A stretch of DNA of 59,875 nt, counting the filler. It is 3 parts of 3 records of this genome, joined end to end, with 100 filler letters (N's around TTAATTAATTAA, not from the genome) between each part and the next. Parts side by side here need not be neighbours in the genome. Positions count along the whole stretch, not along the records: positions 1 to 29,391 come from SRR20825019_181; 2 more parts are not named here. One strand, 5' to 3'. The notes under the pieces were generated by a model. The model ran no database searches, was not told the DNA's origin, and saw only the letters and a program-made list of their open reading frames with translations. The number at the start of each line of letters is the position of its first letter. Within the stretch, counting starts at the first letter, position 1. The position numbers were made by a program, and so were the translations under genes. Below are positions 8,664 through 57,475 of this stretch, piece after piece.

Positions 8664-10475
8664 TCAGTCCATTTCACCACTGAAACGTTGCAACCGTCTC
8701 TTCCTCAATTCCTCTTCTTCGGGTGTCTCAACCCGCTGGCTCACAGTTTGGGGTGTTAGTGTACTCGCGGCTGGTGTATTTGATAAGGGGGAGGACTCCT
8801 GTGCGTTCGTGGTCTTGGCATCACTCGTCTGCTGTTGCATCGGAGATGGGGCCATGCCTTGCGCATTTGCAGCATACATCTGTTGCATTTGCAAAACCTG
8901 CAACTGCACCATCTCCATCTGCAGCTGATTCTGCGCCTTCACCATATCCAAGTATGAGCGCATGCTGGCATCAACCTCATCCTCTGTCATTCCAGGCAGC
9001 GGGGTCGGAATGGGCGCCATCATTGGTCCCCATCCACCCATCATTGGCATACCCATCCCTGGCATTCCTCCCATCTGCAATATTTCAGTTTCACAACAAG
9101 CAGTATCCCGCATTGTACATACCTGCATGGGCATAGGGCTTGTCGGGCTGAGCGCAAACATAGAGCCACCGGCTGTGGACGCAGGTGTGGCCACGTCAGG
9201 GGTACTCGGCATGGCAGGATGCAAAGGGGTGTTGTAGGGTTGTGGTGTCTGCAGGGTGCTGGTGCCTTGCAGCGGTGTATTGTACGCTTGGGTAGAGGGC
9301 ATATTGGCTGCTACAGGAGTCGCCGGGGCCTGCTCAGAGGTAGGCACCCGTGGCTGTTCACCCGAATCGGAGTTAGTATTGCTCCCTTGTACATTTGGTC
9401 TCGCTGAGCCACCACCATTCGAAGCACCTGCGCTAGGTGTAGGGGCCGGAGCAGGCCGAGAGGGTGTCCTTGGAGGGGCACGAATATCTGTTCTGCATGT
9501 TGGACAACTTTTTTGTCTCTCCATCCACGAACGTAAACACGTAAAGTGGAATAGGTGATTGCAAGCCAGCTTCTTCGCAACAGTCATCTCTTCCCTGCAA
9601 ATAACACACTCGTTCCCATATTGCTCAATCTCCTCAGGTGTGGCATCAGGAAACCGCTCATTCATGTTCCTTGTTGTCCGCCGATACCTCACGAAAACAG
9701 CGACCCGCTCGCGGAATGTCCTAAATGTCATCCAGATATCCCGCACAATATGCAAAGGCAGACCGTAATTTGTGTAAATCATCACAAAGAACACCATGTA
9801 AACAAGTAACTGGAACAAATCCGTCACAAGCTCCAGGTAGAAAGTCCACATTCCCTTATTCTCCCAGCCATCCATGGTATGGTCTATCATGTGCAATGCA
9901 TACTTCACGTAAAGCGAAAGAATGGTTGACGCCAAGATCAAGTACTCAAACGCAAACAACGTCAGTACCGAAGTCCCTCTCGTAATTGTGTCGAGCCCAG
10001 CGATATACAGGAAGGTGCAGTCTCCAGCTAACAGTAGCAGCATGAGGAAGAGTATCCGGAAGTGAACGCACTTGTTCACTTGAGGAGACTGTTCAATAAA
10101 ATCAATCCGGTCGCTGCAAAGCCAATGGAATACTTTCAAGCACAAGAAGGAGGCGAACATAGCCACAAATTGAGTATTGAACTCCTCCCGAAAAATTGTC
10201 ATGGCCAGACAGATTTCTGTAATAGCATACCACGCGCGGTCATAAAGATTATCAACTTCAACATCGCGCAGACGACCCAAGAATAGAGCCCGGACCATTC
10301 GACAAAAAATGAGCAAAAGCGCGAGACCTTGGTTCCACATAGTCATCACACCAATTTTTGAGTTAACCAAATACACAATGGCTGGGTAATAGTGCTTTCT
10401 AGTGTAGAAGGCATGAACAACGACCGTTGCTGTCAGGGCAACCGTGAGGCTGACGTACCCTACAAAGGATACCAT
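8664..10475 (-). CDS. HRD1: ERAD E3 ubiquitin ligase HRD1/synoviolin
   Basis: N-terminal TM region (W..ITE.CLAMTIFREEF, LKVFHWL..DR), RING-H2 CVICREEM...C.HLFH..CLRSWMERQKSCPTCR, Pro-rich tail, C-terminal LRKRRLQRF VCP-binding-like motif. In-frame 48-nt intron at 9075-9122. Confidence 0.95.
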   Translation of the reverse strand: MVSFVGYVSLTVALTATVVVHAFYTRKHYYPAIVYLVNSKIGVMTMWNQGLALLLIFCRMVRALFLGRLRDVEVDNLYDRAWYAITEICLAMTIFREEFNTQFVAMFASFLCLKVFHWLCSDRIDFIEQSPQVNKCVHFRILFLMLLLLAGDCTFLYIAGLDTITRGTSVLTLFAFEYLILASTILSLYVKYALHMIDHTMDGWENKGMWTFYLELVTDLFQLLVYMVFFVMIYTNYGLPLHIVRDIWMTFRTFRERVAVFVRYRRTTRNMNERFPDATPEEIEQYGNECVICREEMTVAKKLACNHLFHFTCLRSWMERQKSCPTCRTDIRAPPRTPSRPAPAPTPSAGASNGGGSARPNVQGSNTNSDSGEQPRVPTSEQAPATPVAANMPSTQAYNTPLQGTSTLQTPQPYNTPLHPAMPSTPDVATPASTAGGSMFALSPTSPMPMQVCTMRDTACCETEILQMGGMPGMGMPMMGGWGPMMAPIPTPLPGMTEDEVDASMRSYLDMVKAQNQLQMEMVQLQVLQMQQMYAANAQGMAPSPMQQQTSDAKTTNAQESSPLSNTPAASTLTPQTVSQRVETPEEEELRKRRLQRFSGEMD

Positions 10476-10599
10476 GGTTTCCGACAGCGCGCCTCCCTGT
10501 TCCTTTGAGTGAGATGTGTTGTGTGGCCATATATATACTGTGTGAAAAGAGGTGTTTTGGCAGAAAGGAGTAGCCACGATTTGAGACAGCTTGGGCGGG

Positions 10600-11230
10600 G
10601 CAGTTGGAATGGGCGGGTGCCCCACCGCCCAGGGTTACGCTGGGTGCTGCACACTCCCCCGCGATGCGGCTCAGTGCCCGGCGCGCGGCGGTCAGTGCTG
10701 GCCGGATAAGTAGCGGGCGGGGGCGCGGCTCTCGGCCGCGGCCGCGCTCGCCCGGTGGGAGCCTTGGCGGGGCTCAGTCCAACGGCCGCCGCCGTACGCG
10801 TCTGGCCCTGGACGGTGGGGGCAGAGGCCCCTGGATCAACTGAGTCGATGAGTGAAGGCCCGAGGGCCATGGTTCGGCCATACCAAAACTTAGTCTTTTG
10901 TTGACAGATGTAACAATTGTTATATTGAGATAATGCGTTGTAAAGGCGATTGGTCCCCAACATCGGCGTGCCTAAAAAAAACACGCCCGCCGCGGGCCGG
11001 GCGTGGTGACGAGCCCTTAGCCGCAGGCTACGGCGGGCTCACTGACGTTGACGGGGGCGGCCCGGCCAGGCGACACCCGCGCCGGCGCCCGGCCTCGCGC
11101 CGGCGCCGCCGACCGGGACGAGGACGCCCGGCAGGGCGCCGAGCCTGAATCACACTTGCGGCCCCGCCATTGGCAGTCAGTCATGCCGGCGGCAGCAGGG
11201 CGGATCATATCGTCGCCACAGGCTGGACCC
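10600..11230. promoter_or_regulatory. Bidirectional GC-rich promoter island between HRD1 and AsnRS
   Basis: Two GC blocks flank an AT-rich core (10880-10980) between divergent ATGs. CAGTCAGTCA at 11174-11183. Confidence 0.6.
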
Positions 11231-11473
11231 ATGCAGTCAGCAACTTACGAGAGAGCATACGAGACCAAGACGCTGTATTCTCCCAGTCGTCGTCCCGATC
11301 TGACTGGAGTGTCAACGCCGCTTGCAAACAGTCATCATGCCTTTTCCAAGAGCTTATCGTCCCTCTTGATTCTGGGAATCCTCCTGTTCGAACTGTCGGC
11401 TGACACGAGGTTTCTAGGATTTGCTAATTATAATTAGTGCCAATACCGAAGGAATTCTTTTTGTATTAAAAAC

Positions 11474-13764
11474 ATGGTGGGTCAACTTAGCCTGCACACG
11501 CACGGCTTTGAGGGAAACTTCCGCAAGCACAAAGTCTTGGTAGCCGCAGAGTATGCCAACGTTGATGTGGGTGTAAAAGTTTTGTCTATGGGTCTTGACA
11601 ACAAGACCGAGAGCTTCTTGGCCAAGTTCAACCCTGTTGGCAAGGTCCCAGTTTTGGAGACTGCTGACGGCTACTTGTGGGAGTCCAACGCTATTATGCG
11701 CTATCTTGCACGCCTTTCCCCTGACGCGGAGCTTCTGGGCGGTGGCGATAGCGGTTTCTTTGATGGTGCTTTGGTCGAGCAGTTTTTGGAGTTGAACCTT
11801 AACGAGATTGAGAAGGCGTCCATTGTTTGGCTGGGCCCAGTTCTAGGGTACTTTCCGTTTGACGCCAAGACCACCGAGCAGGCCAAGGGCTCTATAGCCA
11901 AGACCCTGGCTTACTTGGACAAATACTTGTTGAGCCGCACATTCCTTGTTGGCGAGCGCGTGACCCTTGCGGATATTGCTCTTGTTTGTACTCTGGACCC
12001 GCTCTTCCGCGTTGTGGCCGACGAGGCTTTCAGAAAGCCGTATAGCAACGTCGTGCGCTGGTTCCTTACTTGCGTAAACCAGCCGGAGTTTGTCAAGGTG
12101 CTTGGCGAAGTGGCCCTATGCAAGGTCGCAAAGAAGCCCGCTGTGGCCAAGCCTGCGGAGAAGCCCGCCGCCGCCGGATCTGATAACAAGGCACAGAAGC
12201 CTGCTGGCCAGGAGGGTGAGGGTGAGCTTAGCAAGTCCCAGCTCAAGAAGTTGCAGCGTGCCCAGGCCGAGGCTGACAAAAAGGCCAAGAAGGCTGCCGA
12301 AATGGAAGCGAAAAAGGAGGCGGAGATGAAGAAGAAGCGCGAGGAGGCATCCAAGATTGTCATTAAGGAGGATCCTTCCCTCCCGAAGGCAACACAGATT
12401 AAGATTCGCGATGCCTCTAAGCACGTTGACACACGTGTGAAGGTCTTTGGCTGGGTGCATCGCATGCGTTCTCAGGGAAAGAACTTGTTGTTCTTGGTTC
12501 TCCGTGATGGTACTGGTTACTTGCAGGTTGTGCTGAACGATGCTCTGGCACAGTGCCTTAACGCGGTTGAATTGTATCTCGAGGCTTCCGTGTGTGTTTA
12601 CGGAAAGCTCATCTTCGATCCCCGTGCTGATGGCAAGAAGGGCGGTTATGAGCTTCAGGGAGACTTCTGGGAGGTTGTCGGAAAGTCCACTCAGGAGGCC
12701 ACTCAGGTATGAGATTGGTGAAATGTATCTTTGATGCTTAGGTTGCTTGGGCTAACATTTTTTTCCAGCTTGTGAACGAGGATTCGAACCCCGAAGTTCT
12801 CCTCAACAACCGTCATTTGGTAGTCCGAGGTACCCAAATGAGTGCTGTGTTGAAGATGCGCTCCAAGATTTTGTTCTGCTTCCGCGAGTGGTTCATGGAG
12901 CAGGGATTCACAGAAGTGACCCCACCCACGCTTGTGCAGACCCAGGTGGAGGGTGGCTCTACTCTCTTCAAGCTCAATTACTTCGGTGAGGAAGCTTACT
13001 TGACACAATCATCCCAACTTTATCTGGAGACCGTCATCCCCGCAGTCGGTGATGCCTTCTGCATCATGCCTTCCTACCGTGCCGAGAAGAGCCGCACTCG
13101 TCGCCATCTTGCCGAGTACACTCACTTGGAGGCCGAGATGCCCTTCATCACATTCGATGATCTCCTTTCTCATTTGGAGGAGCTCATTTGTGGTGTTGCT
13201 GAGCGCATTATTGCCCGTGGTGGTGATGGTCTGAAGGAACTTAACCCGGACTTTAAGGTTCCCAAGAGGCCGTTCAGGCGCATGCACTATCGCGAGGCCG
13301 TAGAGTATTGCCGCACCCACAACATCTACAAGGATCCTGAAACGAAGGAACACTTTGAGTATGGTGATGACATCCCGGAGGCTCCGGAGCGTCGTATGAC
13401 AGATATGATCGGCGAGCCGATCTTGTTGACGCGTTTCCCTCGTTCCATGAAGTCCTTCTATATGCAGCCGTGTGAGGACAACATGGAGGAAACCGAGTCT
13501 GTCGATGTCTTGATGCCTGGCGTCGGAGAAATTGTTGGCGGCTCTATGCGTATGTGGGATCCTGATATGCTTAAGAAGGGCTACGAGATGGAGGGCATCT
13601 CTCCTGAACCTTACTACTGGTACACCGATCAGCGCAAGTTCGGTTCCCAGCCTCATGGTGGTTATGGTCTTGGCGTCGAGCGCCTTATCATGTGGATCTG
13701 CAACCGTGACCACATTCGTGACACCTGCCTGTATCCCAGGTACTTGGAGCGCTGCAAGCCATAA
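11474..13764 (+). CDS. NARS1: Cytosolic asparaginyl-tRNA synthetase with an N-terminal GST-like (EF1B-gamma-type) domain
   Basis: Exons 11474-12706 and 12769-13764 (62-nt intron with GCTAAC branch point). OB-fold GWVHRMRSQGK..FLVLRDGTG, AYLTQSSQLYLE, motif 2 YRAEKSRTRRHLAEY, motif 3 PHGGYGLGVER. N-terminal GKVPVLET...ESNAI...TLADI. Confidence 0.96.
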
Positions 13765-13925
13765 AGTACAGACGTTTGTTTACTGCCAATTTGTCTTTGC
13801 GCAGAGCTACAGGATACAGCTTACAGCAGCAGCAGACTTCTGTCATAGTTGTACCTCTCCGGCAAAAGTCGTGCCTGGTAGATGTCCTTTCTAGGAGAGT
13901 TGGAGCCGTCCTATCTTTCCACAGC

Positions 13926-39045: not shown

Positions 39046-42000
39046 ATGGCGAATTTAGTGTCCCCGCAGGAAGGTGGTTGGCGCAATATGTAGGCTGCTG
39101 TGTGGCTGCAGGTATTTGTTTTAACACATGCACGCAGGTCCCGTGTCACTCCGACCAGAGGTGGGAGCGTTGAGGACATCGTGACAGTGACGGTGGAGCG
39201 TGCACGAGCTCTTCGAGCCGCACTTGGAGGGGTTCCTCCACCAACTGTCGCCGCTCAACCTGGAGAAAGGCACTTTATGAAGTCAACTATCAGCAGCTCA
39301 AAGAAGACTCCCACTGACACCAGGGATGGAGCAGGGAAGCCAAGTCCGAAAAGGAACAAGCCTAGCCGTGTAGGCGGTATCGTGAAGGATGTGGACACGA
39401 TGATTCGGCAGATTCTTGTTGGGAACCACGACACGACCTCAGTTGTCCTGGCCACGCTTTGTGACGCCGTCACAACCGAGATGTCTCGTGATATATGCGC
39501 CGGGGTGGTGGAGATATATATATCTCAAAAGCGCTCTCAAGCTCTGCATAAGTTGATTCGTAAAGAGCTGCAGCGGAATCTCGAAGCCACCAGCAACGAA
39601 GGTCTGATATTGCGTGGTGACTCCGTGGCGACACAGCTGGCTCAACACTACGCATTGAAGGTGGGGCGAAAGTACCTTTATGACCTCCTGCGGGATACAG
39701 TCTTGACCATTTGCGCGTGTTCTGAGGCTTATGAGGTGGACCCTTCTGTCGCCACCTCGCGAGGCCTCGACTGCCACAAGAATGCCATTGTAGTGCGAAA
39801 CACAAGCAATAAGTTCCTCCAGCACGTGTATGATTCTATGTCCTCGTGTCCAGTGGAGATTCGTCGTCTGTGTCAAACGGTAAAGAATGTGACGGAAGAG
39901 AGGTTTCCTGGGAGTGGCTCGGCAGCAGTGGCGACGTTTTTCTTCTTTCGGCTCCTGCTCCCCATCGCGGTGGCCCCTCCAACGGAGATTGTTCACCCGA
40001 GGCAACTGACGGTCATGGCACGGCGGGCTCTGGTGATATTCGCCAAAACAGTGCAACAGATAGTGCATGGGGTAGAGTTCTCTCGAGCGACGATGGCAGG
40101 TGAATTTGCACATATGGAAGTCATCAGCGAGTACGTCCGCCAACAGGCTCCGGTCGTCAACCAATTTGCCGTGCGCCTTGCTGCCTTTTATAGCGAGTCT
40201 GCGGCAACGAATTACCTTGGAGTTCTTCCTGACCCGAAGGTTGTCCAGGCTGAAAAGGAGCACGTGGATCGCATGGTCGCCGCGGTTAGGGCAGGTTGCA
40301 GTCTTGAAAATGGAAATGTGTGGAAAAAGCTTAAGACTGCCTTGGGACCGCTTATTGGCGTTGGAGTGTCTGGTGGGCCGGTGGCGGTTACTAGCTCCTT
40401 AAGGGAGATTGTTTCTGACAATATCCAGATGGCCATGAATAGCAGAGGAAGGTCAAGGTCTCCAAAGCAGCAGAAGTTTGTGCCCGCATCATCTAGGGGC
40501 AACAGTCGAGGGCGGTCGAGTAGCCGAGGCCGAAGTAACAGGCCGTCTCCGTCCCCACACCGATTCGAAGATCATCAACACTCCCACGATCACCCGAAGC
40601 AAAAGGAGGCTGCTCGGGATTATCATACTGCGAACATCACCTCCATGTCGCATGCTCCGGTAGTACGACACACCTCCCGCCCTGAGATAGAAAAGGCGGA
40701 CATTTATGATACAACTGCAGAGGCGCAGGAGCTACGCAGACTTGTTAAGCCCACGAAATCTAGTGTGGCCAGCGCCAACAGCAACAGCAGCATCGGAAGG
40801 AGAAAGCCGGCTAGTAAGGCTAGTGGCCCAGACCCTCTCGACAGGTGCCTCTCTCCCACCCCGCATCTGTTTCCTGGGGCGCGGAAGATGAAGATCAGCG
40901 ACATGAGGGCCGGACGACCTGCCAAGATTGATGGATACCACAAAGCCCCCGAGTCACGCCCAAAGTCGCGCCCCCAAACTGCGCGGGCTGCGTCGGCACC
41001 AAAGCACTCTCCGGTCCCTCGGCCCCAAACAGCCCGGTCCGAACCGCTGAAACAGCCGTCGGTTGATCTTGACGCGGAGGCCAATGATGCCGCCGAGTTT
41101 TTGGTGAATAATGCCCGCGAGAAGGCGCAGCTTCTCAAGGATAGTAATGACCGCATGGTTGCGCAGTCCCTTGCTTGTGAGAATGCGATCAGTGACATTG
41201 TCCAGAAGAACTCGATTCGTAAGACCACCAGCAGTGGGGCGGTTACAAAGAGCATGTCATCGGGTGGCATTGGCCTTGGAGCCGTCCCAGGTGGAGGTAA
41301 GGCCGCTATCCGCTCATCATCATTGGAGAGGGCTCCGCAGCGCCGAGTAGAGTACGATTTGCACGGTCGTCGCGTCCTTACTGGCGTGACAAATGCTCGT
41401 AAGACGATAGGCAAGAGGCCAGCAACAGACCGAGGCCGCACTCCGGCCCGGGGCCGTACCTCCGGACCATCGTCCTCTACTGAAAGGCCTGTTCTCGAAG
41501 GCGGCAGTGTGTTCGATGACATGCTGCAGGATGCACTTGAGCAGAAGGAGCAGCTTATTTCTGACCTTGAGAACCGGGATGCCCTTCGTAAAGAGATAGA
41601 GAACGTCCTCAAAACGAACAAAGGGATCAACGAGGAGCTAAAGGATTACTACAATCAACGGGTGGTCAAGCCCAAAGGTGAATCTAAGTCGAAGACTGCG
41701 CCAGCGCGCAAGATGCCTCATCAGGGGGCGGGCCAGAGGCCTGCGGTTACCAAGAGCACTCAAGAGGAAGTTGGGCGGCAGCGCATGGCCATGATTAAGG
41801 AGCTCATTGCTGCCGCCGTGCGAAGCTGCCCTGCTCATCGTCGCCAAGATATGATCGAGAAGCTGAATCAGGTAGTACGCCAGAATGCGAGTTCAGAGCC
41901 CGCAGGTGCTGTAGCGGGTGCGCCGTCACATGTTGTTCAGGCACTGGTTGATACTATGCTGAACGATCCCGACATTAGGACGGCCGGCCTGGTGCATGAG

Positions 42001-45000
42001 GTGATCAAGAAGTCGGACGAGGCCAAGACTGCGGCGGCCTTGATGCTCGAGGACCCTGACAAGCGGTACATGGACCAAGTGGCTCCTAAGCGCCACTGGG
42101 CAGCGTATAACAAGCCCACACCCTATACGGAGAAGTCGGCTCGAGTTACAAACCCGGGTCCTGGCATGTATACATTGTCACGCCCTGAGGAAAAGAGTGG
42201 TAAGAAGGCGAAGGATACAGCACCAGTGGACGAGGTGCACCAGGATCCATCCCTAGTCGGCAGAGAGGCCGATGAATACGTGGCTGCCTGTTTGGAGGTT
42301 GCGAACGAGCTGCCAGATGAAGAGCGCAAGGCCTTTGAGAAAGAGCGGAAAGCCATGCTCTCCAATGCGGCGACCAGCTTTGGAGAAGAGACCAAACCAA
42401 AGGCTATCTCTCCTTCAAGCCAGAAGGTCGAGGAAGCTCTACTTGAGGCCGCAAGACTGATTGAAGAGTCGAAACGAAACGATACGAAGCACTCTCCAAA
42501 GGCGAAGGTGGGTTCGAGTCATGTACGCGCGTTGGACAAGGCGCTTGCCGCCATGGAAATGGCGGAACGTGGTCTTGGAAAGGCAGCAGTAGCCGCCAAG
42601 ACTGGCAAGGCGCCACTGAAGACGGCGGAACCCGTGAAAAAGATGCCGGCAAACACGATGAGAAGACAAGAGTCTCCGGTCAAGGACCCGGTCTCTCCCG
42701 CCAGCCAGAGGGTAGAAGAAGCACTGAGAGAAGCAAATCGGGTGATGGACGCTGCACGGCGACAAGAGTCCAAGCGAAGACAATTGGACGAAAACACATC
42801 ACGTCCCAGAAATGCTTCTGATGAAAGGGATGAGGCGTCTGGTGCCGCAGCTGCCTTCTCCCAGGATGTTGGAAGGGGGCTCCGTCATGCGGCTGAAACT
42901 GTTGCCGCATCGGCAGAAAAGCGGAAAAAAGGCAAGGCTGCTACTGTGCCATCCTCTGTGCCCACCCCGCCTTCGAAACCGAAGGATGGATCGCGCCCAA
43001 CGTACTTTGCCACTGTGGATCGTAAGCGACCTTCCTCTCTGCCGGATGCCAAGATGGACGCCTTTTCGTTGACTGAAGAGGAGGAAAAGCATCTTCTTGA
43101 CTCCGAGAAGGATCACAAGCGAATGATGGACACGTTGCTTCCTTCAGGTAATCTCGCAGAGCGTCCTGATACGAACGAAAAGAAGCGAGATCCCCGAGAT
43201 GGAGTTTCCCTCCACAACTATGATTCCCGGGGCCGCACGTCCCACAGAATGGGCGCCACTCAGACAAATGAGGCCAGGGGAAGATCCCTTGGTCGGGTAT
43301 CCGCTGAAGCACTGCGTGAGGTGTCTATTGAGCGCAGCATCAAGGATGTTCAACGTTTGAAAGAGCTTGAACGCTTGGAAAAGCTAGCCGAGGAGAAGAA
43401 GGTTCAAGTTCTCTGGTCTCCTCAACACTCGGGCCCTCCAGCCATTGCACCAATGGAGCACGAATCACCTCGTGGAGTCCAAGGCGAAAAGCGGAAGATG
43501 AACACAATTTCTCGAAAGGTTGATGCCGTTAGCAAGGCATTCGGGAAGTACATAGATGAGGACGATGACATGGAGGATGGCCTTGGGAGGCTCGATCAGT
43601 TTGACGGTGGCGCTGTCAAGCAGCCTGTAATGAAGGTCCACCAGGATGCTGCCATTACCATTTCGGAGGCTGATGTCCTAACTCCAAACTCTTCCGCAAT
43701 TCAGAAACAGCTCCACGCTGCTCAGAGACGTCTGGATCAAGCAAACGCGGCTCTTGCTCAGGTGCGTGCCGAGAAAAGCCAAGCCAAGCCTGACAAGGAG
43801 AGAATAAGCAAAGATGACGATAAAGGCCTCATGAAGGCCTCTGGGGCAAATAGCGTCGTCAGTGGAGGTTATGCAGCTCCTTCTGGCAGTGGAGTTGACG
43901 CAAAGCCTTGCAAGAGTGGTACTATCGCCCTCGATGGACGAGTGATGATCCATGATTCTGGTTTCTACGAATCTGTGAAAACGATGCACACTCCAAGTGA
44001 GCTGCAGGCAATCCCTTCGGGTGTTGGGGCGCGGGAAGTGACGCCGCCACCACGACAGGCCAGCCCGGCCGTGGAGGAGCAGGCATCGAAGACATTGCCC
44101 TTGTTGACACGTAGTGATCTGACGGCGATCTCACGTAAACCAGACCCAGCTTCCCCAGACGCACTGGACGCTGAGTTAACGCTTTCGGATTTGACTGATT
44201 CGAAGGGCTCTAACCGGGTGTTAGATGGAGGAAAGAAGCAGTCTGACATGGATCTCAGCAAGAGTGGGGGGTCTAAGTTCAGCGGTCTTTCTGCTGACCC
44301 GTGGGAAAGCGGGTTGAGCAGCAATGTGAATGCAACGTTCGGTGTTGAGATGAGTCGCGTTGCGGAAACTTCAGGAGATGCACCTACAATGACACCACCG
44401 AGCACAACTGCCAAAAAGCTTCAAGATGGTCTGCGGAATCTGCTGGACAACCTGGAAGACTGGGAAGACGCCCTCGACAGCCCGGCGCCACCCCCGGACC
44501 TAGCGGGCAACGCAACCCGCGTTCAGGTGGAAGGTCATCAAAAGCCAAGCAATCCGAGTACCCAAGAGAATATTGAAGACTTTGTAATCGAGGATGGGCA
44601 GTTGGAGGTTGCCGCGATGTTGGAAAAGGCGGGAGCGCTGCGCATTAATCCTATCGATGATACAGATGATGTCCTTGAAGACTTTGAAGATTCCAGGGAG
44701 CACTTTGATGATGTATCTGCGCCCGGTAATTCCGTATCAATTGTTGACAAGCTGGCACCGATGGAGGATTCAGAAGTCGATGGTCGTGATCCGTCTCGAG
44801 GTGCAGTGCCATCAGTTGATGTTCCTTCCTTGAGCATCGGATCGGTACAGAAACGGACTCAGGCGGCGCTGGAGAAGGCGATGGAGGACGATGAAGACGT
44901 CTTTGGTGAAGATACACTCGATCTAGATTCGGAGGCATTGGGCGAGCCTGTGAAGGCGATCAAGCCCTCCGTGACACATAAGGTGAGTTGTGTACTGATG

Positions 45001-45216
45001 GCCGGTCGGATCATTGAACATCTAATGTTTTTGGCGTAGAAACCCACCATGGGATTCATCGGCCTCGAGGATCTCGACAGCGCAGTAGCGGCCACTATCG
45101 GGAAGGGCACCTCGGCCCTGCTCAACCCTTCCTCTTCGGGATCTCAACTGCAGATGAAACCCCTTACCGAGACTTACGATGCTCCGGAAGATGATGATTG
45201 GGATGCCTCTGACTAA
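39046..45216 (+). CDS. Large RasGAP-domain protein (~2000 aa) with a long disordered C-terminal region
   Basis: Arg finger ILRGDSVAT, YEVDP, CPVEIR, FFFFRLLLPIAVAP, AKTVQ. Introns at 39090-39137 and 44983-45039. Ends ...EDDDWDASD*. Confidence 0.9.
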
Positions 45217-46378: not shown

Positions 46379-47941
46379 TTAGACATTGTCGGTGTTCTGA
46401 ATAGCATAGTATTCGGGGCTGGGGCGGGGGGGTCCGCCCTGAGTAATGCCCAAACGACCCAAATAAGTGCTGCGGACCTGATGGACTGTACGCTGGAGCT
46501 TGTCCTCCTGGTGCTGGCGGTTGTATTGGAAGACAGGGCCGGCGACCTCGAGCCCGTTAATGCCAATGAACTTAGCAGCGCGCCACTGCTTCTCCGACTC
46601 CTTAAGGGAATCAACGCCCGAAACCTTCTTCTTACGAATCAGGTCTTCAATGGCACCACCAAACCGGTAAGTGACAAGACCAAGCATCACAACCACAAGA
46701 CCAATGACGTCCTTGTACTGGAACGGCTTGCCCTTGGGAATATGGGGAATCGCGAAGGTCAAATTGCTGAGCGGCACCATGACAGTCATTGCAACCCACA
46801 ACACGTTGGCAGAACCGTGTTTCAGGATCATAATAATCAGAATGTTGTACAAAATATTGAAAACGAGGTACACATTCACAAAGACAGGCGCCATCAAGCA
46901 CTTGTCGTCCTTAGCAGGATCCTCGGATCCAGTTTTTGAGTTGAGGGAAACGTAGCACTTCAAACCCCTCCACAGCTCCCCGGGAATATTCTTCACAGGG
47001 TCAATACTAATGAAGGTATTAAAATTACTAGTATCGGCAAATGCTTGTGCATAAGCGGCAGGAATGGTCAGAGGAAGAGAAGTAATGAACTGGAAAACAG
47101 CAATCCAGCCATTAAGGTAAACTACGTCGATTTCAGTCTCTCCTAGAGCAATCTCCTTAAACACAGACGAAAGGGTCATAGGCAGGCACGACAACACCAT
47201 AATCGCAGCCCAGATATACTGAAGATATTTTGGAGGAGGCTTTGGCTTGTTTGGATCGTCTTCACTCTTTGCTGCCTCCTCGGGGTAGAAGACCACGAAA
47301 ATCAGACCAATAAGCACAACAGCAGCTCCAAGATATTGCCAGATCCTGTACTTCACACGCAAGAGAACCTTCGTAATAATCATCGACATGGGAATGGCTG
47401 ACTGTTGAAGCAGGATTGTGACGCCACCGTCGGGAATGAATGTCGTCGCAAAGACCTGCATAATCCCGGCAAACGAGTCCAATATGCCCATAACAGCGAA
47501 CTTGTACTTAGGGATTTCAGTTTCCTTCTTTGAGATGGCACTTCCGCACATCTGCATAGGGATGATGTATGCAAAACTAACAAAAGTTTAGTTATTGAAT
47601 ACAAATGAACACAGGAACACACAGAAAAAAGCTTACCTCGCAGGAATATAAATAAAGGTTGTCCACATGTTCATAAAGTTAGGGTAGTTCTTCATTGGCA
47701 GCGTCGCGAACACGTTGAAAAGCTTGTTGCCGAGACCGACAAAAATCATAGCAACAAACGAGAAGATTAGCATATTAGTTTTGGCCTGAGGTTTGCCAAC
47801 AGACTCGTCCTCCGCAACCACTGGCTTTTCAATATCATTGTAGACTTCTGCATCTTCACCGTCTGCCACAGGCAACAGAGGCTTGTGCAACTCGTCTCCC
47901 CCTTGCCCTTTACTCGACGACATCTTGCTCCACATCTTCAT
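46379..47941 (-). CDS. CRT-like (chloroquine resistance transporter family) protein
   Basis: GNKLFN...PMKNYPNF, KFAVMGILDS, LLQQSAIPMSM, SSVFKE, WIAVFQ, GLKC...DDC, FNILYNIL.....LKHGSA. One intron near 47577-47636. Confidence 0.9.
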
Positions 47942-53695: not shown

Positions 53696-53821
53696 ATAAC
53701 CTATCGCTGCCTATTTAATACTTGCGCTTTGAAATATTCGAGTTTGAAAATAAATAATACATTGAATATTATTTGAGTTATTTTATGTTCTGCTCCCCTC
53801 TTACAAAGTGTTTTAAGTAGA

Positions 53822-56800
53822 ATGCAAGCAGCTGCCGCCACACGCCCCAAGAAACCTATGAGCAGTAGTGGTGTAGGTACTGGCTCATCGCCTCTGACCA
53901 AGCGTCTCGCACAGGAGCACGGATTCCCTAAGCGTCTATCGGCGACCGCGGGATCTCGTGCTGCCCGCAGTATTAGGTCAGCACCAACGGATGGTGCCCG
54001 TACCCGTAATGGTAGCGCGAATACTGTTGATGAGCCGATACAGGCCAGTAGGGGGGCAACCCTTAAAATGGAATTGGCAGGTGTCCAGCGGCTTCAGCAA
54101 CTCGTCGAGCTTACTAACGACCCCGCCACTGCTACCCAATATAGACAGCAGGCTGCTGGATTGGCTGAGTGTCTAGCCTGCTTTCCCAACGGATTCACAC
54201 CTGCTGTTGCTCAGGATGGTGTGGGTCAACTCCTCCTATCCCTATCCGCCGCAGTTGCAACGGGGGCCGAAGGGACCGAGAAGCTAGTACCTGCTCTAAC
54301 CTCCCTCATTCAGCGAGCATCCCAGCCTCTATTATGCGCTACCCTTGAGGACCAGCGACTGGCTGAAGCAGCCGTCGCTTCCATCTGCCGCTCCCTTTCT
54401 GCTCCCCTCTCGATCCCAAACCACCCTGAAGTACGTATTGCGGCCGCAATTGGATTGGGGGATGTGTTCGCCTTGGTTCGCAGTATGGCCGGGGATGACG
54501 TTGGGAGGAGTAGGGATGGAAGGGGGCTCGGTGAGACGGCAGCCTCATGGCGGCTCAACCTTCGCAGATCAATTACCTTAGATGTGTTGCAGGTACTAGT
54601 ATCTACCTGGCACCGGTGTGTGGAGGAGGAGATGTCAGCCATCACTACCGCCGCCAATGACGCCTCCGCCAACCAACGAGCCGCCCTTTCGGATAGTAGT
54701 GACGAAGATGTGGAGGATAAATCATCCGCTGCAAACTCCTCAGCAACAGGAGCTGGAGGTACTGCGTCCTCAGCCGAGAGATTTGCCATCACTGCAAGCT
54801 CCCGAAGGACCCAGAGTGCCATTGTACCTACCGAACTCATTGCCCTACTACGGGCTGTCCGTGAGGCCTCCTTCCTTGCTCCCCAGGCGAACCATCTTGC
54901 CCTTGACTGTGATGCATGCGACGAGTGCTTCCGCACTCTGGCGGTCTGCGATCGGGGTGATTACCGCGTTGGTCTCATAGTCGATGTTCTCCTTAATCTG
55001 TTAGAGCTTTGCCCTGAGGCGGCTCAGAGCTGCACGAGCCCAATCGCAATCCAAGCCTTGTATGGCGCATTTGTAGAGTGCCTTGCGTTGGGATACCAAC
55101 AGCGCCAACGGGAGATCCGTAACGACTTCATCGTAATTCTTACACATATCCTCCAGGCCGATGGGGATGCCTTCATTCCCCTCCTAGGCCCTCTCAGCGA
55201 GGTTCTTTTGGACTTGGCGTGTGGCAGTGAGATGAGCCAGAGGGTGGCGTTAGCAGGAGACGATAACTCATCCTATGCCCTCAGCCCACACATCAACCCA
55301 ACACACCACTATACAACCCGACACGAAGACCAGCAGGCTAAGCTCCTTTCATGGGCCTTCTTATCCGCTCTAGCCTGTAGGGATGAGGCTATTGCCGGAG
55401 CTACACTAGCTTGGGGGTTTCTCCAGGTGCTGCTGTCTTACATTGATGTTCACTGTGACCTACCGGCTGTCGTACGTTGGTCCACAGCCCAGCTGCTTGA
55501 GATCCAAGAACATGCCCTCTTGGTACTGTCGGAGATGGCACCGTTGGCATGGGAGCGGTTTGTGGAGTACAATGCCGCACATGTCCTCCAAAGCTACATT
55601 GTCGAATGCCCCGACGCCCGTCTCCGCAACCTAGCTGTGACAGTTCTTGCCCGACTCGCGGTCACAGATGCCCGCACACAGGTCGCCGAAGCTGGTACCA
55701 CCCCAATGGCCCTCCAGCTGCTCTCATCATTGGACAGTGACTCGTTGTGTGTTGAGTGTTTGAATATGCTTGCCGATTTGGTGAGCCTCAGCGACGATCA
55801 GAGGAAGCTATTCTTTGACTGCGGAGGTGTCGAGATCGCCACCCCCTTCCTTGCCTTCGCGCCCAACTATCATACGGAGTTGAGGGAGAGCGTCGTACTG
55901 AGTGCAGTCGACTGTGTATGGAGTTGCATATTCGGCCGACCAGATAGCGAGGCGGCCTTCATTGCTGCGGATGGTGTTCATCTCTTCCTCTCGGCCCTAG
56001 AGACCGTCTCCCCTAAGCACGCACCTTACATGGTATCGGCCCTCGCCGACCTGCTTAACAATGCTGATAGTGTCAAGTTCGTAAGGGTGTGGAGGAGTCC
56101 CACAACTGGCCGCTCAGCAGTGCAGCTCTTCACAGCCCTTTGGCTGCGAGTTGCACAATCAGGAGATCCTGTTCAGGCGGTTGGGGGTGGAAGGCTTCGT
56201 GATGGCCAGTCGGCTGTATCTCCAAGTGTACTGACACTAATTGAAGGCCAACAAACATTCCTCAAGGTGTACGCTTGTATGTGTAGGGTTGGTTTTGCCG
56301 ACCACCGTGAGCTTACCCCGAACCAACGGGCCACACTGGCCCACATTGAGCTATATGAGCAGCTGTGCAACGACGCCGCTTGGCTAAGGGTTGATGAGGA
56401 CCTAAATGAGCACAGTATCCAGGCCATTCCCACCGACCGTCGTAAGTTAGATGCCATCCTCGCTGCGGGTAGAGATCGGAAGAACACCCTGGACGAGGTG
56501 CAAGGGCATTTCCTTGCAGAGGGAGCCGACAGGGAGGCAGCAACTGACCTAGCGTACTACAAGTCCCTCATCAAAAAGACAGAGGAGGCCCTTCCCGACG
56601 GAGTGGGGGTAATGTGTGGCATGACGATAACCCAGGCTAAGATCCGCAAGGCTCAAATGTTAAAGCAGTCGTTCCAGAGCGCACAGGCACAGCAACAGGC
56701 ACGTACCTACGAGCAGGCCGCCCTCCATAACACAGGTAGTGCGGGTAGCAGCCCCGCCACTCAGCAGCTTTCATGGACCGCTCCATCTCCACTGCTGCCC

Positions 56801-57475
56801 CAACGCGGTGGAAATGGTCCTGACGGACCATTGCAAATGGGTGCCGGTAAGACTGAGGTGGGTCGATGGGGTGATGCCCAGCAGGCTATGGCCGAGGAGG
56901 AGTTTGCCGTCCTGCAGTGCATCAATGCAATCCGCACCCACCCCAAATCCTTCATTCCCAGACTGGAAGACTACCTCCAGCGGTCCGAGGCCTTGGTTCA
57001 CACCGTTGAGGGGCCCGCAGCCGTCAAGGAGGCCATTGAGGTGCTTCAGACTGCACGGCCCGTTGTTGCCTTCCTCGAGGTTCCCATGGGTATGCTGTAT
57101 GCGGTGCGAGATCACATGGCGGACCTCTCTGGCAGGTTGGATGTGAGCGCACAGGGATCGGACGGATCTAGTCCATACCAACGTCTACTCCGATACGGGC
57201 AGGTCCCCCAGCGTGCCTCCCACCTTCAGAGTCTAGGACACTTAGCAGCCGAGGAGATCGTATTGCAGCTTATCATTGATGATGGTGTCAAGAACCGTAT
57301 TGACAGGCGCACCATCCTGGACCCCGAGATGAGGTACTGTGCCGTGTCGGTAGGAGTGCATCCCGTTCATGCCCAAGTTGCCATCGTTTCTATGGCCTAT
57401 GAGTTTGTAGACAAGCCAAGGGAGCTCCAGAACGACATCAACCGCAAGGTCCACAGAAGCCGACAGAGGCTATAG
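53822..57475 (+). CDS. CFAP69: CFAP69-like ARM-repeat flagellar protein with a C-terminal CAP-like domain
   Basis: REIRND, RWSTAQLLEIQ, SAVDCVWSCI....SEAAFI..DGV, W.S...G.SA.QL...LW resemble CFAP69. C-terminal INAIRTHP..EGPAAVKEAI..IVLQLIIDDGV..R..R..I is CAP-like. Confidence 0.8.
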   Translation: MQAAAATRPKKPMSSSGVGTGSSPLTKRLAQEHGFPKRLSATAGSRAARSIRSAPTDGARTRNGSANTVDEPIQASRGATLKMELAGVQRLQQLVELTNDPATATQYRQQAAGLAECLACFPNGFTPAVAQDGVGQLLLSLSAAVATGAEGTEKLVPALTSLIQRASQPLLCATLEDQRLAEAAVASICRSLSAPLSIPNHPEVRIAAAIGLGDVFALVRSMAGDDVGRSRDGRGLGETAASWRLNLRRSITLDVLQVLVSTWHRCVEEEMSAITTAANDASANQRAALSDSSDEDVEDKSSAANSSATGAGGTASSAERFAITASSRRTQSAIVPTELIALLRAVREASFLAPQANHLALDCDACDECFRTLAVCDRGDYRVGLIVDVLLNLLELCPEAAQSCTSPIAIQALYGAFVECLALGYQQRQREIRNDFIVILTHILQADGDAFIPLLGPLSEVLLDLACGSEMSQRVALAGDDNSSYALSPHINPTHHYTTRHEDQQAKLLSWAFLSALACRDEAIAGATLAWGFLQVLLSYIDVHCDLPAVVRWSTAQLLEIQEHALLVLSEMAPLAWERFVEYNAAHVLQSYIVECPDARLRNLAVTVLARLAVTDARTQVAEAGTTPMALQLLSSLDSDSLCVECLNMLADLVSLSDDQRKLFFDCGGVEIATPFLAFAPNYHTELRESVVLSAVDCVWSCIFGRPDSEAAFIAADGVHLFLSALETVSPKHAPYMVSALADLLNNADSVKFVRVWRSPTTGRSAVQLFTALWLRVAQSGDPVQAVGGGRLRDGQSAVSPSVLTLIEGQQTFLKVYACMCRVGFADHRELTPNQRATLAHIELYEQLCNDAAWLRVDEDLNEHSIQAIPTDRRKLDAILAAGRDRKNTLDEVQGHFLAEGADREAATDLAYYKSLIKKTEEALPDGVGVMCGMTITQAKIRKAQMLKQSFQSAQAQQQARTYEQAALHNTGSAGSSPATQQLSWTAPSPLLPQRGGNGPDGPLQMGAGKTEVGRWGDAQQAMAEEEFAVLQCINAIRTHPKSFIPRLEDYLQRSEALVHTVEGPAAVKEAIEVLQTARPVVAFLEVPMGMLYAVRDHMADLSGRLDVSAQGSDGSSPYQRLLRYGQVPQRASHLQSLGHLAAEEIVLQLIIDDGVKNRIDRRTILDPEMRYCAVSVGVHPVHAQVAIVSMAYEFVDKPRELQNDINRKVHRSRQRL

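What the first reader, a model, noticed from the sequence alone, without database searches (positions are those of the whole stretch)
11474..12400. Asparaginyl-tRNA synthetase fused to an EF1B-gamma-type GST domain
Seen: one exon with no stop encodes about 215 aa of GST fold (NFRKHKVLVAAEY, FNPVGKVPVLET, ESNAIMRYLA, FLVGERVTLADI, NVVRWFLTCVNQPEF), a K/A/P linker, only the last helix of the usual eukaryotic AsnRS N-extension (LSKSQLKK), and then the OB-fold. Established: GST-like domains dock MetRS/EPRS/AIMP2-3 or Arc1p into multisynthetase complexes and ValRS onto the eEF1B complex, while animal and yeast AsnRS lack one. Inference: this lineage recruits AsnRS into an eEF1B-linked or new multisynthetase complex. 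I cannot exclude that the fusion is already recorded in other protists.
Basis: partly seen in the sequence, partly recalled or inferred. Interest (0 to 1): 0.72.

Follow-up and report, generated by a model that had tools for sequence, protein, structure and literature searches.

The report
AsnRS fused to eEF1B-gamma GST domain
A marine protist makes its asparagine-charging enzyme as one protein with the docking domain of a translation elongation factor subunit on its front end, a combination that reviews of these enzymes do not list.

Summary
A two-exon gene on the + strand (11474-12706 and 12769-13764, with a 62-nt GT..AG intron) encodes 742 aa. Reading from the N-terminus it has a complete GST_N+GST_C domain, a disordered K/A/P linker, only the lysine-rich helix of the eukaryotic AsnRS N-extension, an OB fold and a full class II AsnRS core.

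Intron-less contigs from two public runs of one sample cover 11465-13774 in one piece, so the fusion is one mRNA.

The GST domain is eEF1B-gamma-type. Its best solved match is the human eEF1B-gamma GST domain (E 1.8e-41, TM 0.9). It keeps 54 of 60 eEF1B-gamma-conserved positions, as many as real eEF1B-gamma proteins do.

Docking to eEF1B is inferred and was not tested, because no genome of the organism is held.

The architecture is not unique. An arthropod-affiliated clade of unnamed transcripts has its own GST-AsnRS, and one MMETSP transcript joins a GST to a bacterial-type AsnRS. Tree tests indicate these are independent fusions. Some crustacean AsnRS isoforms carry an eEF1B-alpha N-domain-like insert instead.

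None of seven literature searches found a description of GST-AsnRS.

Verdict: real and expressed; a new variant of the known kind "GST-appended synthetase"; moderately interesting.

The parts
11465..11473 (+). Shortest 5' UTR supported by cDNA. The contig's 5' end at 11465 is preceded by non-genomic adapter-like letters.
   Evidence: tables 7 and 8. That the loose end is a template-switch oligo is my recollection, not a tool result.
11474..12706 (+). Exon 1, 411 codons starting at the first ATG after an in-frame stop. It encodes the GST domain, linker, lysine-rich helix and OB fold.
11474..12139 (+). eEF1B-gamma-type GST-like domain, residues 1-222 (Pfam GST_N 11-80, GST_C 122-204).
   Evidence: human eEF1B-gamma 5dqs, E 1.8e-41, residues 11-217; pLDDT above 90. 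TMt 0.89-0.91 to 5jpo/5dqs; 54 of 60 eEF1B-gamma-conserved positions kept.
12140..12223 (+). K/A/P/G-rich linker, about residues 223-250, predicted disordered.
   Evidence: pLDDT under 50 for residues 233-248; composition; eEF1B-gamma hits align on into this region, which fits an origin from the eEF1B-gamma inter-domain linker (inference).
12221..12385 (+). Lysine-rich helix, the C-terminal part of the eukaryotic AsnRS N-extension (residues 250-304). The folded head of that extension is absent.
   Evidence: AsnRS_N profile positions 35-91 of 91 only; aligns to human AsnRS from residue 56; helix at 254-293.
12437..12676 (+). OB-fold anticodon-binding domain, residues 322-401.
12707..12768 (+). 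Intron of 62 nt, GT..AG, phase 0, with a ctaac branch-like motif at 12752-12756.
   Evidence: sequence. table 5: the joint that skips 62 bases is seen in the contigs of X1 and X2.
12769..13764 (+). Exon 2, the class II AsnRS catalytic core (331 codons) plus the TAA stop.
   Evidence: tRNA-synt_2, E 4.3e-77; human AsnRS, E 1e-148. TIGR00457 asnS, 343.3 bits against a cut-off of 342.6.

Best explanation
The locus is one expressed gene for a 742-aa cytosolic-type asparaginyl-tRNA synthetase. [quoted passage not shown]

Shown: the architecture, its continuity in one exon and one mRNA, the eEF1B-gamma affinity of the GST domain, and an intact AsnRS core.

Inferred:
- The GST domain is a docking module, not a detoxifying enzyme.
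- It holds the AsnRS dimer on the eEF1B nucleotide-exchange complex. It would do so either by binding the N-terminal domains or helices of eEF1B-alpha/beta, as the eEF1B-gamma GST domain does in PDB 5DQS and 5JPO, or by pairing with eEF1B-gamma's own GST domain.
- Asn-tRNA(Asn) would then be handed directly to eEF1A-GTP, as described for vertebrate ValRS in the eEF1H complex.
- The domain keeps the glutathione-site cis-proline (P59) and the Glu-Ser pair (E70/S71), so this docking may respond to glutathione.
For: One gene, one mRNA:
- GST and OB fold lie in a single stop-free exon.
- One 2290-nt contig in X1 and one 2270-nt contig in X2 (same sample) cover 11465-12703 and 12766-13774, with the 62-nt GT..AG intron removed.
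- Four differences from the genome: three synonymous and one Q246K in the linker.

eEF1B-gamma type:
- The best PDB sequence hit is the human eEF1B-gamma GST domain, E 1.8e-41. Human MetRS GST scores only 8.9e-8, and Arc1p_N_like falls below its Pfam cut-off at 24.9 against 27 bits.
- I sent 60 of the 150 listed hits of the exhaustive representative search to Pfam; 32 of those 60 carry the EF1G C-terminal domain.
- The AF2 model (pLDDT 91.3) superposes on 5jpo/5dqs at TMt 0.89-0.91 and 41-42% identity.
- 54 of the 60 positions that are at least 75% conserved in 24 EF1G-bearing proteins are kept. Those proteins themselves keep a mean of 53.4, ValRS GST 42.4, and the other GST-AsnRS clade 40.4.
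- P59, V159, G160 and R195 are invariant across 51 aligned sequences.

Functional core: human AsnRS E 1e-148 against AspRS about 1e-43; the asnS equivalog cut-off is reached on exon 2 alone.

Mechanistic precedent (passages read):
- The ValRS N-terminal GST-like domain is required for the ValRS-eEF1B complex and for channeling (PMC9458455, PMC4394549).
- The eEF1B-gamma GST domain binds the eEF1B-alpha N-domain and the eEF1B-beta/delta N-helix (PMC9458455).
- A preprint reports that the EEF1G GST-N domain binds glutathione and that GSSG displaces EEF1D, with P59 essential (PMC12632765).

Convergent hint: lobster AsnRS isoform P0177, residues 80-148, matches the human eEF1B-alpha N-domain, the partner of eEF1B-gamma in 5DQS, at E 5e-6.
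Against: - No binding was tested. The organism's genome is not held, so I could not obtain eEF1B-alpha, beta or gamma from it, nor learn whether a separate eEF1B-gamma gene or a second AsnRS exists.
- High retention of eEF1B-gamma positions could reflect a recent fusion rather than a retained function.
- X1 and X2 are not on record as RNA. I read them as cDNA from the missing intron and the adapter-like ends (the adapter identity is recalled).
- Contigs cannot exclude a second, shorter transcript that starts inside the gene.
- GST domains also drive multisynthetase assemblies, and the GST tree is unresolved around the window's sequence.
Confidence: 0.55

Rival explanations
1. The GST domain places AsnRS in a multisynthetase complex built from GST-GST contacts, as in Arc1p-MetRS-GluRS or the human MetRS-AIMP3-EPRS-AIMP2 GST tetramer, rather than on eEF1B.
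For: - GST-like domains are the standard assembly modules of such complexes (PMC4394549 and PMC9136112, passages).
- eEF1B-gamma-like GST domains are fused to AlaRS, ProRS, CysRS, a class II (tRNA-synt_2b) core and WHEP-bearing fragments in protist and environmental data. Lineages with many GST-tagged synthetases therefore exist.
Against: - The domain is much closer to eEF1B-gamma than to the MSC-type GSTs: E 1.8e-41 against 8.9e-8 for human MetRS, and Arc1p_N_like is under its cut-off.
- It keeps the eEF1B-gamma-conserved positions as fully as eEF1B-gamma itself does.
Confidence: 0.15
2. The GST domain acts on its own, either as a glutathione-binding or redox-sensing regulator of AsnRS, or as an extra dimerisation or solubility module, with no stable partner complex.
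For: - G-site residues are kept: P59, E70 and S71.
- Human EEF1G binds glutathione through this site (PMC12632765).
- EEF1G GST domains form classic GST homodimers in crystals (PMC10452860).
- AsnRS is itself a dimer (established for class IIb synthetases).
Against: - Reported GST activity of eEF1B-gamma orthologues is weak or absent (passages in PMC12632765 and PMC10452860).
- Retention of 54 of 60 eEF1B-gamma-conserved positions, not only the G-site ones, suggests that the partner-binding surfaces are kept too (inference).
Confidence: 0.2
3. The fusion is an artefact: a mis-assembly joining an eEF1B-gamma gene to an AsnRS gene, or a read-through that is not translated as one protein.
For: None found. 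The window's own protein is not in the 5.8-billion-protein collection, so no independent gene call exists.
Against: - Independent contigs from two runs of another data set reproduce the junction and the splice at 99% or higher identity.
- A 232-nt contig from a marine metagenome matches 11921-12152 with one mismatch.
- The frame is open throughout.
- Three of the four differences between cDNA and genome are synonymous.
Confidence: 0.02

Closest known systems
Vertebrate valyl-tRNA synthetase (VARS1) in the eEF1H complex
   Same: An eEF1B-gamma-related GST-like domain at the N-terminus of a synthetase, followed by a lysine-rich segment. The domain is needed for stable association with eEF1B and for channeling of the charged tRNA to eEF1A (PMC9458455 and PMC4394549, passages).
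   Different: - A class I enzyme for valine, against a class IIb dimer for asparagine here.
- The ValRS GST keeps fewer eEF1B-gamma-conserved positions: mean 42.4 of 60 against 54 here.
- One preprint says ValRS retains only the GST-C part (PMC12632765). Here both GST_N and GST_C are complete.
eEF1B-gamma (EEF1G) N-terminal GST-like domain
   Same: 44-51% identity. It gives the best sequence and fold matches. The cis-proline P59 and the Glu-Ser pair are kept, and the domain is followed by a K/A/P-rich linker.
   Different: The EF1G C-terminal domain (PF00647) is absent, with AsnRS in its place. The window's protein is therefore not an eEF1B-gamma.
Unnamed GST-AsnRS clade (P0141, P0143, P0115, P0138 and others; JGI and Logan transcript-sized contigs)
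   Same: GST domain at the N-terminus of a eukaryotic-type AsnRS; 12 of 120 listed long relatives.
   Different: - Their GST is only 31-35% identical to the window's (38.9% over the partial domain of P0149) and keeps 38-44 of the 60 positions.
- They retain the complete AsnRS_N head.
- Their cores nest with pancrustacean arthropods at SH-aLRT 97.
- Holding them together with the window's core is rejected, AU p = 0.0025.
- Near-identical short forms without GST also exist, for example P0140 beside P0141 and P0136 beside P0138.
P0008, an MMETSP transcript (752 aa)
   Same: An eEF1B-gamma-like GST domain (44% identity over residues 49-215) in front of an AsnRS.
   Different: The linker is glycine-rich. 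The AsnRS is the other type, bacterial/plant-like by my reading of its sequence, and is only 30% identical in the core.
AsnRS carrying the GlnRS N-terminal domain (trypanosomatids, Amoebozoa)
   Same: Another lineage-specific replacement of the AsnRS N-extension by a domain borrowed from the translation apparatus. PF04558 occurs in 33 of the 120 listed relatives, and the case is described for trypanosomatids in PMC8319005.
   Different: A different appended domain. The trypanosome AsnRS was not found in that organism's synthetase complex (PMC8319005, passage).

Membership tests
Eukaryotic cytosolic-type asparaginyl-tRNA synthetase (class IIb) | Complete class II (D/K/N) catalytic core | tested here: met
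   tRNA-synt_2, E 4.3e-77, profile positions 2-306 of 308.
Eukaryotic cytosolic-type asparaginyl-tRNA synthetase (class IIb) | Asn-specific rather than Asp- or Lys-specific | tested here: met
   Human AsnRS E 1e-148 against cytoplasmic AspRS about 1e-43. TIGR00457 asnS scores 343.3 bits against a cut-off of 342.6 on exon 2 alone.
Eukaryotic cytosolic-type asparaginyl-tRNA synthetase (class IIb) | N-terminal OB-fold anticodon-binding domain | tested here: met
   PF01336 at residues 322-401. The model has strands at 321-403 with pLDDT above 90.
Eukaryotic cytosolic-type asparaginyl-tRNA synthetase (class IIb) | Complete eukaryote-specific N-extension (Pfam AsnRS_N) | tested here: not met
   Only profile positions 35-91 of 91 match, and the alignment to human AsnRS starts at its residue 56. 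Several protist AsnRS of 512-530 aa also lack a full AsnRS_N hit, so this is not peculiar to the fusion.
Eukaryotic cytosolic-type asparaginyl-tRNA synthetase (class IIb) | Charges tRNA(Asn) with asparagine | not testable with these tools
   Needs an aminoacylation assay.
eEF1B-gamma-type GST-like domain | Thioredoxin-like GST_N plus helical GST_C fold | tested here: met
   Pfam. AF2 model with pLDDT above 90 over residues 11-220. Foldseek TMt 0.89-0.91 to 5jpo/5dqs.
eEF1B-gamma-type GST-like domain | Closer to eEF1B-gamma than to other GST classes | tested here: met
   E 1.8e-41 against 1.8e-14 for the next GST class. Keeps 54 of 60 conserved positions. The tree places it in the unresolved eEF1B-gamma polytomy.
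eEF1B-gamma (the protein) | EF1G C-terminal domain (PF00647) | tested here: not met
   Absent from both exons. tblastn with four EF1G proteins finds only the GST part in the window.
eEF1B-gamma-type GST-like domain | Binds the N-terminal domains of eEF1B-alpha and eEF1B-beta/delta | not testable with these tools
   No partner sequences from this organism.
eEF1B-gamma-type GST-like domain | Glutathione-site cis-proline and Glu-Ser pair | tested here: met
   P59 is invariant. E70 and S71 match columns conserved in 24/24 and 23/24 EF1G rows. Their roles are taken from PMC12632765 (passage) and from recollection for Glu-Ser.
GST-appended aminoacyl-tRNA synthetases | GST-like domain and synthetase in one polypeptide and one mRNA | tested here: met
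   Single exon. One intron-less contig covers the whole ORF.
GST-appended aminoacyl-tRNA synthetases | The synthetase is one of the catalogued GST-bearing types | tested here: not met
   The AARS Online superfamily table lists GST for CysRS, GluRS-E, MetRS and ValRS only (PMC11580382, passage). PMC8319005 names GluRS, ValRS, CysRS and MetRS.
MSC/Arc1p-type GST assembly domains | Sequence affinity to the MetRS, EPRS, AIMP or Arc1p GST domains | tested here: not met
   Arc1p_N_like scores 24.9 bits, under its cut-off of 27. Human MetRS GST scores E 8.9e-8, 33 orders of magnitude weaker than eEF1B-gamma.

The most novel reading that the evidence does not exclude
Coupling of AsnRS to the eEF1B exchange complex may be a recurrent, convergent solution. 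It would have arisen at least three or four times:
- this protist, with a near-pristine eEF1B-gamma GST domain;
- an arthropod-affiliated GST-AsnRS clade;
- crustacean AsnRS isoforms carrying the complementary eEF1B-alpha N-domain-like insert;
- an alga-like MMETSP organism, on a bacterial-type AsnRS.

In the window's protein the intact glutathione site would make the docking redox-sensitive, with GSSG releasing AsnRS from eEF1B as reported for EEF1D and EEF1G. In the boldest form, this protein supplies part or all of the eEF1B-gamma N-domain function in its lineage.
Probability: 0.2. Interest if true: 0.75.

Novelty: new variant of a known kind. Interest (0 to 1): 0.5.

Why it matters
Why ValRS alone among the synthetases is wired to the elongation-factor recycling complex is posed as an open question in the passage of PMC9458455 that I read. 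A second synthetase of the other class carries a domain that cannot be told from eEF1B-gamma's at the conserved positions. With independent look-alike solutions in arthropod-affiliated and algal data, it would give comparative material for that question, and a simple recombinant system (a 222-residue domain plus eEF1B N-domains) to test channeling and glutathione control.

It also corrects the working assumption that GST appendages are confined to MetRS, GluRS/EPRS, ValRS and CysRS. AsnRS, AlaRS and ProRS versions are present in public data without a description that I could find.

Tried and rejected
The protein Atlas was closed for both the window's protein and a stored homologue. No genome is held for the window. 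I therefore could not ask whether the organism has a separate eEF1B-gamma, eEF1B-alpha/beta, a second AsnRS or other GST-tagged synthetases.
- Sequencing runs: no RNA holder is listed. The two holders, X1 and X2, are of unrecorded kind. I laid them anyway, and the intron-less contigs are what I use.
- Complex prediction on two copies of the GST domain (residues 1-225): no verdict, score 0.17 against a mark of 0.32, and the controls were not run. This is no evidence either way.
- Exhaustive representative search with exon 1: none of the 150 listed hits covers both the GST and the AsnRS halves. Representatives stand for 50%-identity clusters, and eukaryotic AsnRS cores are 55-68% alike, so N-terminal variants may be hidden behind GST-less representatives. 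This is weak evidence of rarity.
- Metagenome scan with exon 1: 0 of the 80 kept loci match beyond residue 255. All are GST-only, eEF1B-gamma-like matches, and no kin with the same fusion was found.
- Word-indexed searches: the best core identity to anything is 68% (P0354, listed under Cyanoptyche). The next best belong to a breviate, an ancyromonad, Diphylleia, Rhodelphis and a red alga, each with a 513-530-aa AsnRS without GST. No close relative could be found, so the age of the fusion could not be bracketed. Only 120 of 737 hits and 120 of 6557 hits were listed.
- GST-domain tree (63 rows that I chose from the 353 proteins then stored; multi-GST proteins were left out): unresolved around the window. 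The AU test does not reject a common origin of the window's GST and the arthropod-affiliated clade's GST (p = 0.193). The case for independent fusions therefore rests on the AsnRS moiety (p = 0.0025). That clade's membership, including its short forms, was fixed after I had seen the tree.
- Literature: seven searches found no paper describing a GST-AsnRS. Only CC-licensed PMC and bioRxiv texts are covered. Laporte et al. 2014 (FEBS Lett), cited in PMC9136112, was not read, and supplements were closed.
Full report
**The observation**

The first ATG is at 11474. A GT at 12707 and an AG ending at 12768 bound a 62-nt phase-0 intron with a ctaac motif. The frame resumes at 12769 and ends with TAA at 13762-13764. 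The product is 411 + 331 = 742 residues.

Pfam finds these domains:

| Domain | Residues | Note |
|---|---|---|
| GST_N | 11-80 | exon 1 |
| GST_C | 122-204 | exon 1 |
| AsnRS_N | 250-304 | only profile positions 35-91 of 91 |
| OB fold (tRNA_anti-codon) | 322-401 | exon 1 |
| tRNA-synt_2 | 8-324 of exon 2 | almost full length, E 4.3e-77 |

GST and OB fold share one exon, so the fusion does not rest on a splice prediction.

**Expression as one molecule**

Two public runs of one sample (X1, X2; kind not on record) each hold a single contig (2290 nt in X1, 2270 nt in X2). Each contig lies on 11465-12703 and 12766-13774 and skips exactly the 62-nt GT..AG intron. The X1 contig's 5' end at 11465 is preceded by non-genomic letters, and both contigs are followed at the 3' end by non-genomic letters. 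I recall these as a template-switch oligo and a tagmentation adapter, which is my reading and not a tool result.

The contigs differ from the genome at four places. Three changes are synonymous (codons 73, 124, 248) and one is Q246K in the linker. A 232-nt contig from a marine metagenome (X3) matches 11921-12152 with one mismatch.

**What the two halves are**

The C-terminal part is an AsnRS. Exon 2 matches human AsnRS at E 1e-148, against about 1e-43 for cytoplasmic AspRS. It reaches the curated asnS equivalog cut-off on its own, 343.3 against 342.6 bits.

The N-terminal part is an eEF1B-gamma-type GST-like domain:
- The best solved sequence match is the human eEF1B-gamma GST domain (5dqs, E 1.8e-41, residues 11-217). 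The next GST class scores 1.8e-14 and human MetRS GST 8.9e-8. Arc1p_N_like stays under its cut-off.
- In an exhaustive scan of 1.84 billion representatives, the best hits are mostly 400-450-aa proteins. I sent 60 of the 150 listed hits to Pfam, and 32 of those 60 carry the EF1G C-terminal domain.
- An AlphaFold2 model of exon 1 (pLDDT 91.3) shows a confident GST fold, a disordered stretch at 233-248, one long helix at 254-293 and the OB barrel. Foldseek ranks the human eEF1B-gamma GST domain first, with TMt 0.89-0.91 and 41-42% identity.
- Sixty alignment columns are at least 75% conserved in 24 EF1G-bearing proteins. The window keeps 54 of them. Those proteins themselves keep 53.4 on average (range 47-59), ValRS GST 42.4, the other GST-AsnRS clade 40.4 and AlaRS GST 35.7.
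- P59, the cis-proline of the glutathione site, is invariant in a 51-sequence alignment.

The EF1G C-terminal domain is absent. Many eEF1B-gamma hits align on into the K/A/P linker. This fits a gene made from the 5' half of an eEF1B-gamma gene (GST plus linker) joined to an AsnRS that had only the lysine-rich helix. That last point is inference.

**Relatives and distribution**

Nothing close exists in the collections I could search.
- The best core identity is 68% (P0354). The next hits belong to a breviate, an ancyromonad, Diphylleia, Rhodelphis and a red alga, all with 513-530-aa GST-less AsnRS.
- A metagenome scan found 0 of 80 loci spanning both halves.

The architecture as such is not unique.
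- Among the 120 listed long AsnRS relatives, 12 carry GST_C plus a complete AsnRS_N, OB fold and core. All are unnamed transcript-sized contigs.
- Their cores form a clade (SH-aLRT 99-100) that groups with pancrustacean arthropods at 97.
- Near-identical GST-less short forms sit beside the long ones.
- Their GST domains are only 31-35% identical to the window's over the full domain, and 38.9% over the partial domain of P0149.
- Holding the window's AsnRS together with that clade is rejected (AU p = 0.0025). The same test on the short GST domain is not decisive (p = 0.193).
- One MMETSP transcript, P0008, joins an eEF1B-gamma-like GST through a glycine-rich linker to the other AsnRS type, 30% identical in the core.

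I therefore read at least three independent GST-AsnRS fusions.

Lobster, barnacle and brine-shrimp AsnRS isoforms carry an insert inside the N-extension. In the lobster protein the insert matches the human eEF1B-alpha N-domain, the very partner of the eEF1B-gamma GST domain in 5DQS, at E 5e-6. The barnacle and brine-shrimp inserts look alike by eye and were not tested. In 33 of the 120 listed relatives, Amoebozoa among them, the AsnRS N-terminus is instead the GlnRS N-terminal domain, as published for trypanosomatids (PMC8319005).

**Mechanism**

Shown: the architecture, the expression, the domain type and the conserved glutathione-site residues.

Inferred: the GST domain tethers the AsnRS dimer to eEF1B. 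The precedents come from passages I read:
- The eEF1B-gamma GST domain binds the eEF1B-alpha N-domain and the eEF1B-beta/delta N-helix (PMC9458455).
- The homologous ValRS domain is indispensable for the ValRS-eEF1B complex, which channels Val-tRNA to eEF1A (PMC9458455 and PMC4394549).
- A 2025 preprint reports that EEF1G binds glutathione through GST-N, that GSSG disassembles the heavy complex by competing with the EEF1D helix, and that P59 is essential (PMC12632765).

The window's domain keeps this site, so glutathione-sensitive docking is possible. I give the eEF1B docking model about 0.55, a GST-driven multisynthetase complex 0.15, an autonomous glutathione-binding or dimerisation role 0.2, and an artefact 0.02. 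The single complex job (a GST homodimer) returned no verdict and counts for nothing.

**Comparison with what is known, and novelty**

GST-appended synthetases are a known kind.
- The AARS Online table lists GST for CysRS, GluRS-E, MetRS and ValRS only (PMC11580382), and PMC8319005 gives the same four.
- The review PMC4394549 does not mention AsnRS at all (0 occurrences).
- Seven full-text searches found no description of a GST-AsnRS. Subscription papers and supplements were not covered.

The window's protein is therefore a new variant of a known kind: a different, class II synthetase carrying an unusually pristine eEF1B-gamma domain. The architecture is already present, undescribed, in other public sequences.

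**Context**

The window comes from a eukaryote with short introns and about 53% G+C. It encodes a CFAP69-like protein, so the organism is presumably flagellated. Its AsnRS lies outside the animal-plus-fungal group in the core trees, at SH-aLRT 97-99. I did not try to identify it further.

Noticed in passing
P0177 (Homarus americanus AsnRS isoform X1) residues 80-148; also P0097 (Amphibalanus) and P0116 (Artemia): Crustacean AsnRS isoforms carry an insert inside the N-extension. The lobster insert matches the human eEF1B-alpha N-terminal domain (5dqs chain D, E 5e-6), which is the partner of the eEF1B-gamma GST domain. The barnacle and brine-shrimp inserts look similar by eye only.
   Followed up: partly
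P0141/P0140 and P0138/P0136 (unnamed JGI and Logan transcripts): Within the arthropod-affiliated GST-AsnRS clade, long forms (800-813 aa, with GST) and short forms (581-634 aa) have almost identical cores. P0136 simply begins inside the GST domain of P0138, whereas P0140 has its own different N-terminus. These may be alternative isoforms, truncated ORFs or sister species.
   Followed up: partly
P0038, P0052, P0063 (AlaRS); P0039 (ProRS); P0041 (CysRS-like); P0262 (tRNA-synt_2b core); P0227, P0230 (GST+WHEP): eEF1B-gamma-like GST domains are also fused to AlaRS, ProRS and other synthetase parts in MMETSP, JGI and ENA data. AlaRS and ProRS are not in the published list of GST-bearing synthetases that I saw.
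   Followed up: no
window 11465: The X1 contig's 5' end lies only 9 nt upstream of the ATG, directly after adapter-like letters. This is either a very short 5' UTR or a truncated cDNA.
   Followed up: no
window 8664-10634 (-): Divergently placed upstream neighbour: an Hrd1/synoviolin-like ER ubiquitin ligase (TPR_SYVN1_N at E 1.9e-99, plus a RING-H2 finger) with a long low-complexity Pro/Met/Gln-rich tail.
   Followed up: no
window 46379-47587 (-), 53777-57475 (+), 39094-45039 (+): A CRT-like (chloroquine-resistance-transporter-like) gene, a CFAP69-like ARM-repeat gene (which implies cilia or flagella), and a 1981-codon open frame with a RasGAP domain.
   Followed up: no
P0181 (1852 aa) and P0182 (2930 aa): Among the best representative hits are giant proteins with four EF1G domains (P0181) or 29 matched GST stretches (P0182). 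They may be tandem eEF1B-gamma arrays or mis-joined gene models.
   Followed up: no
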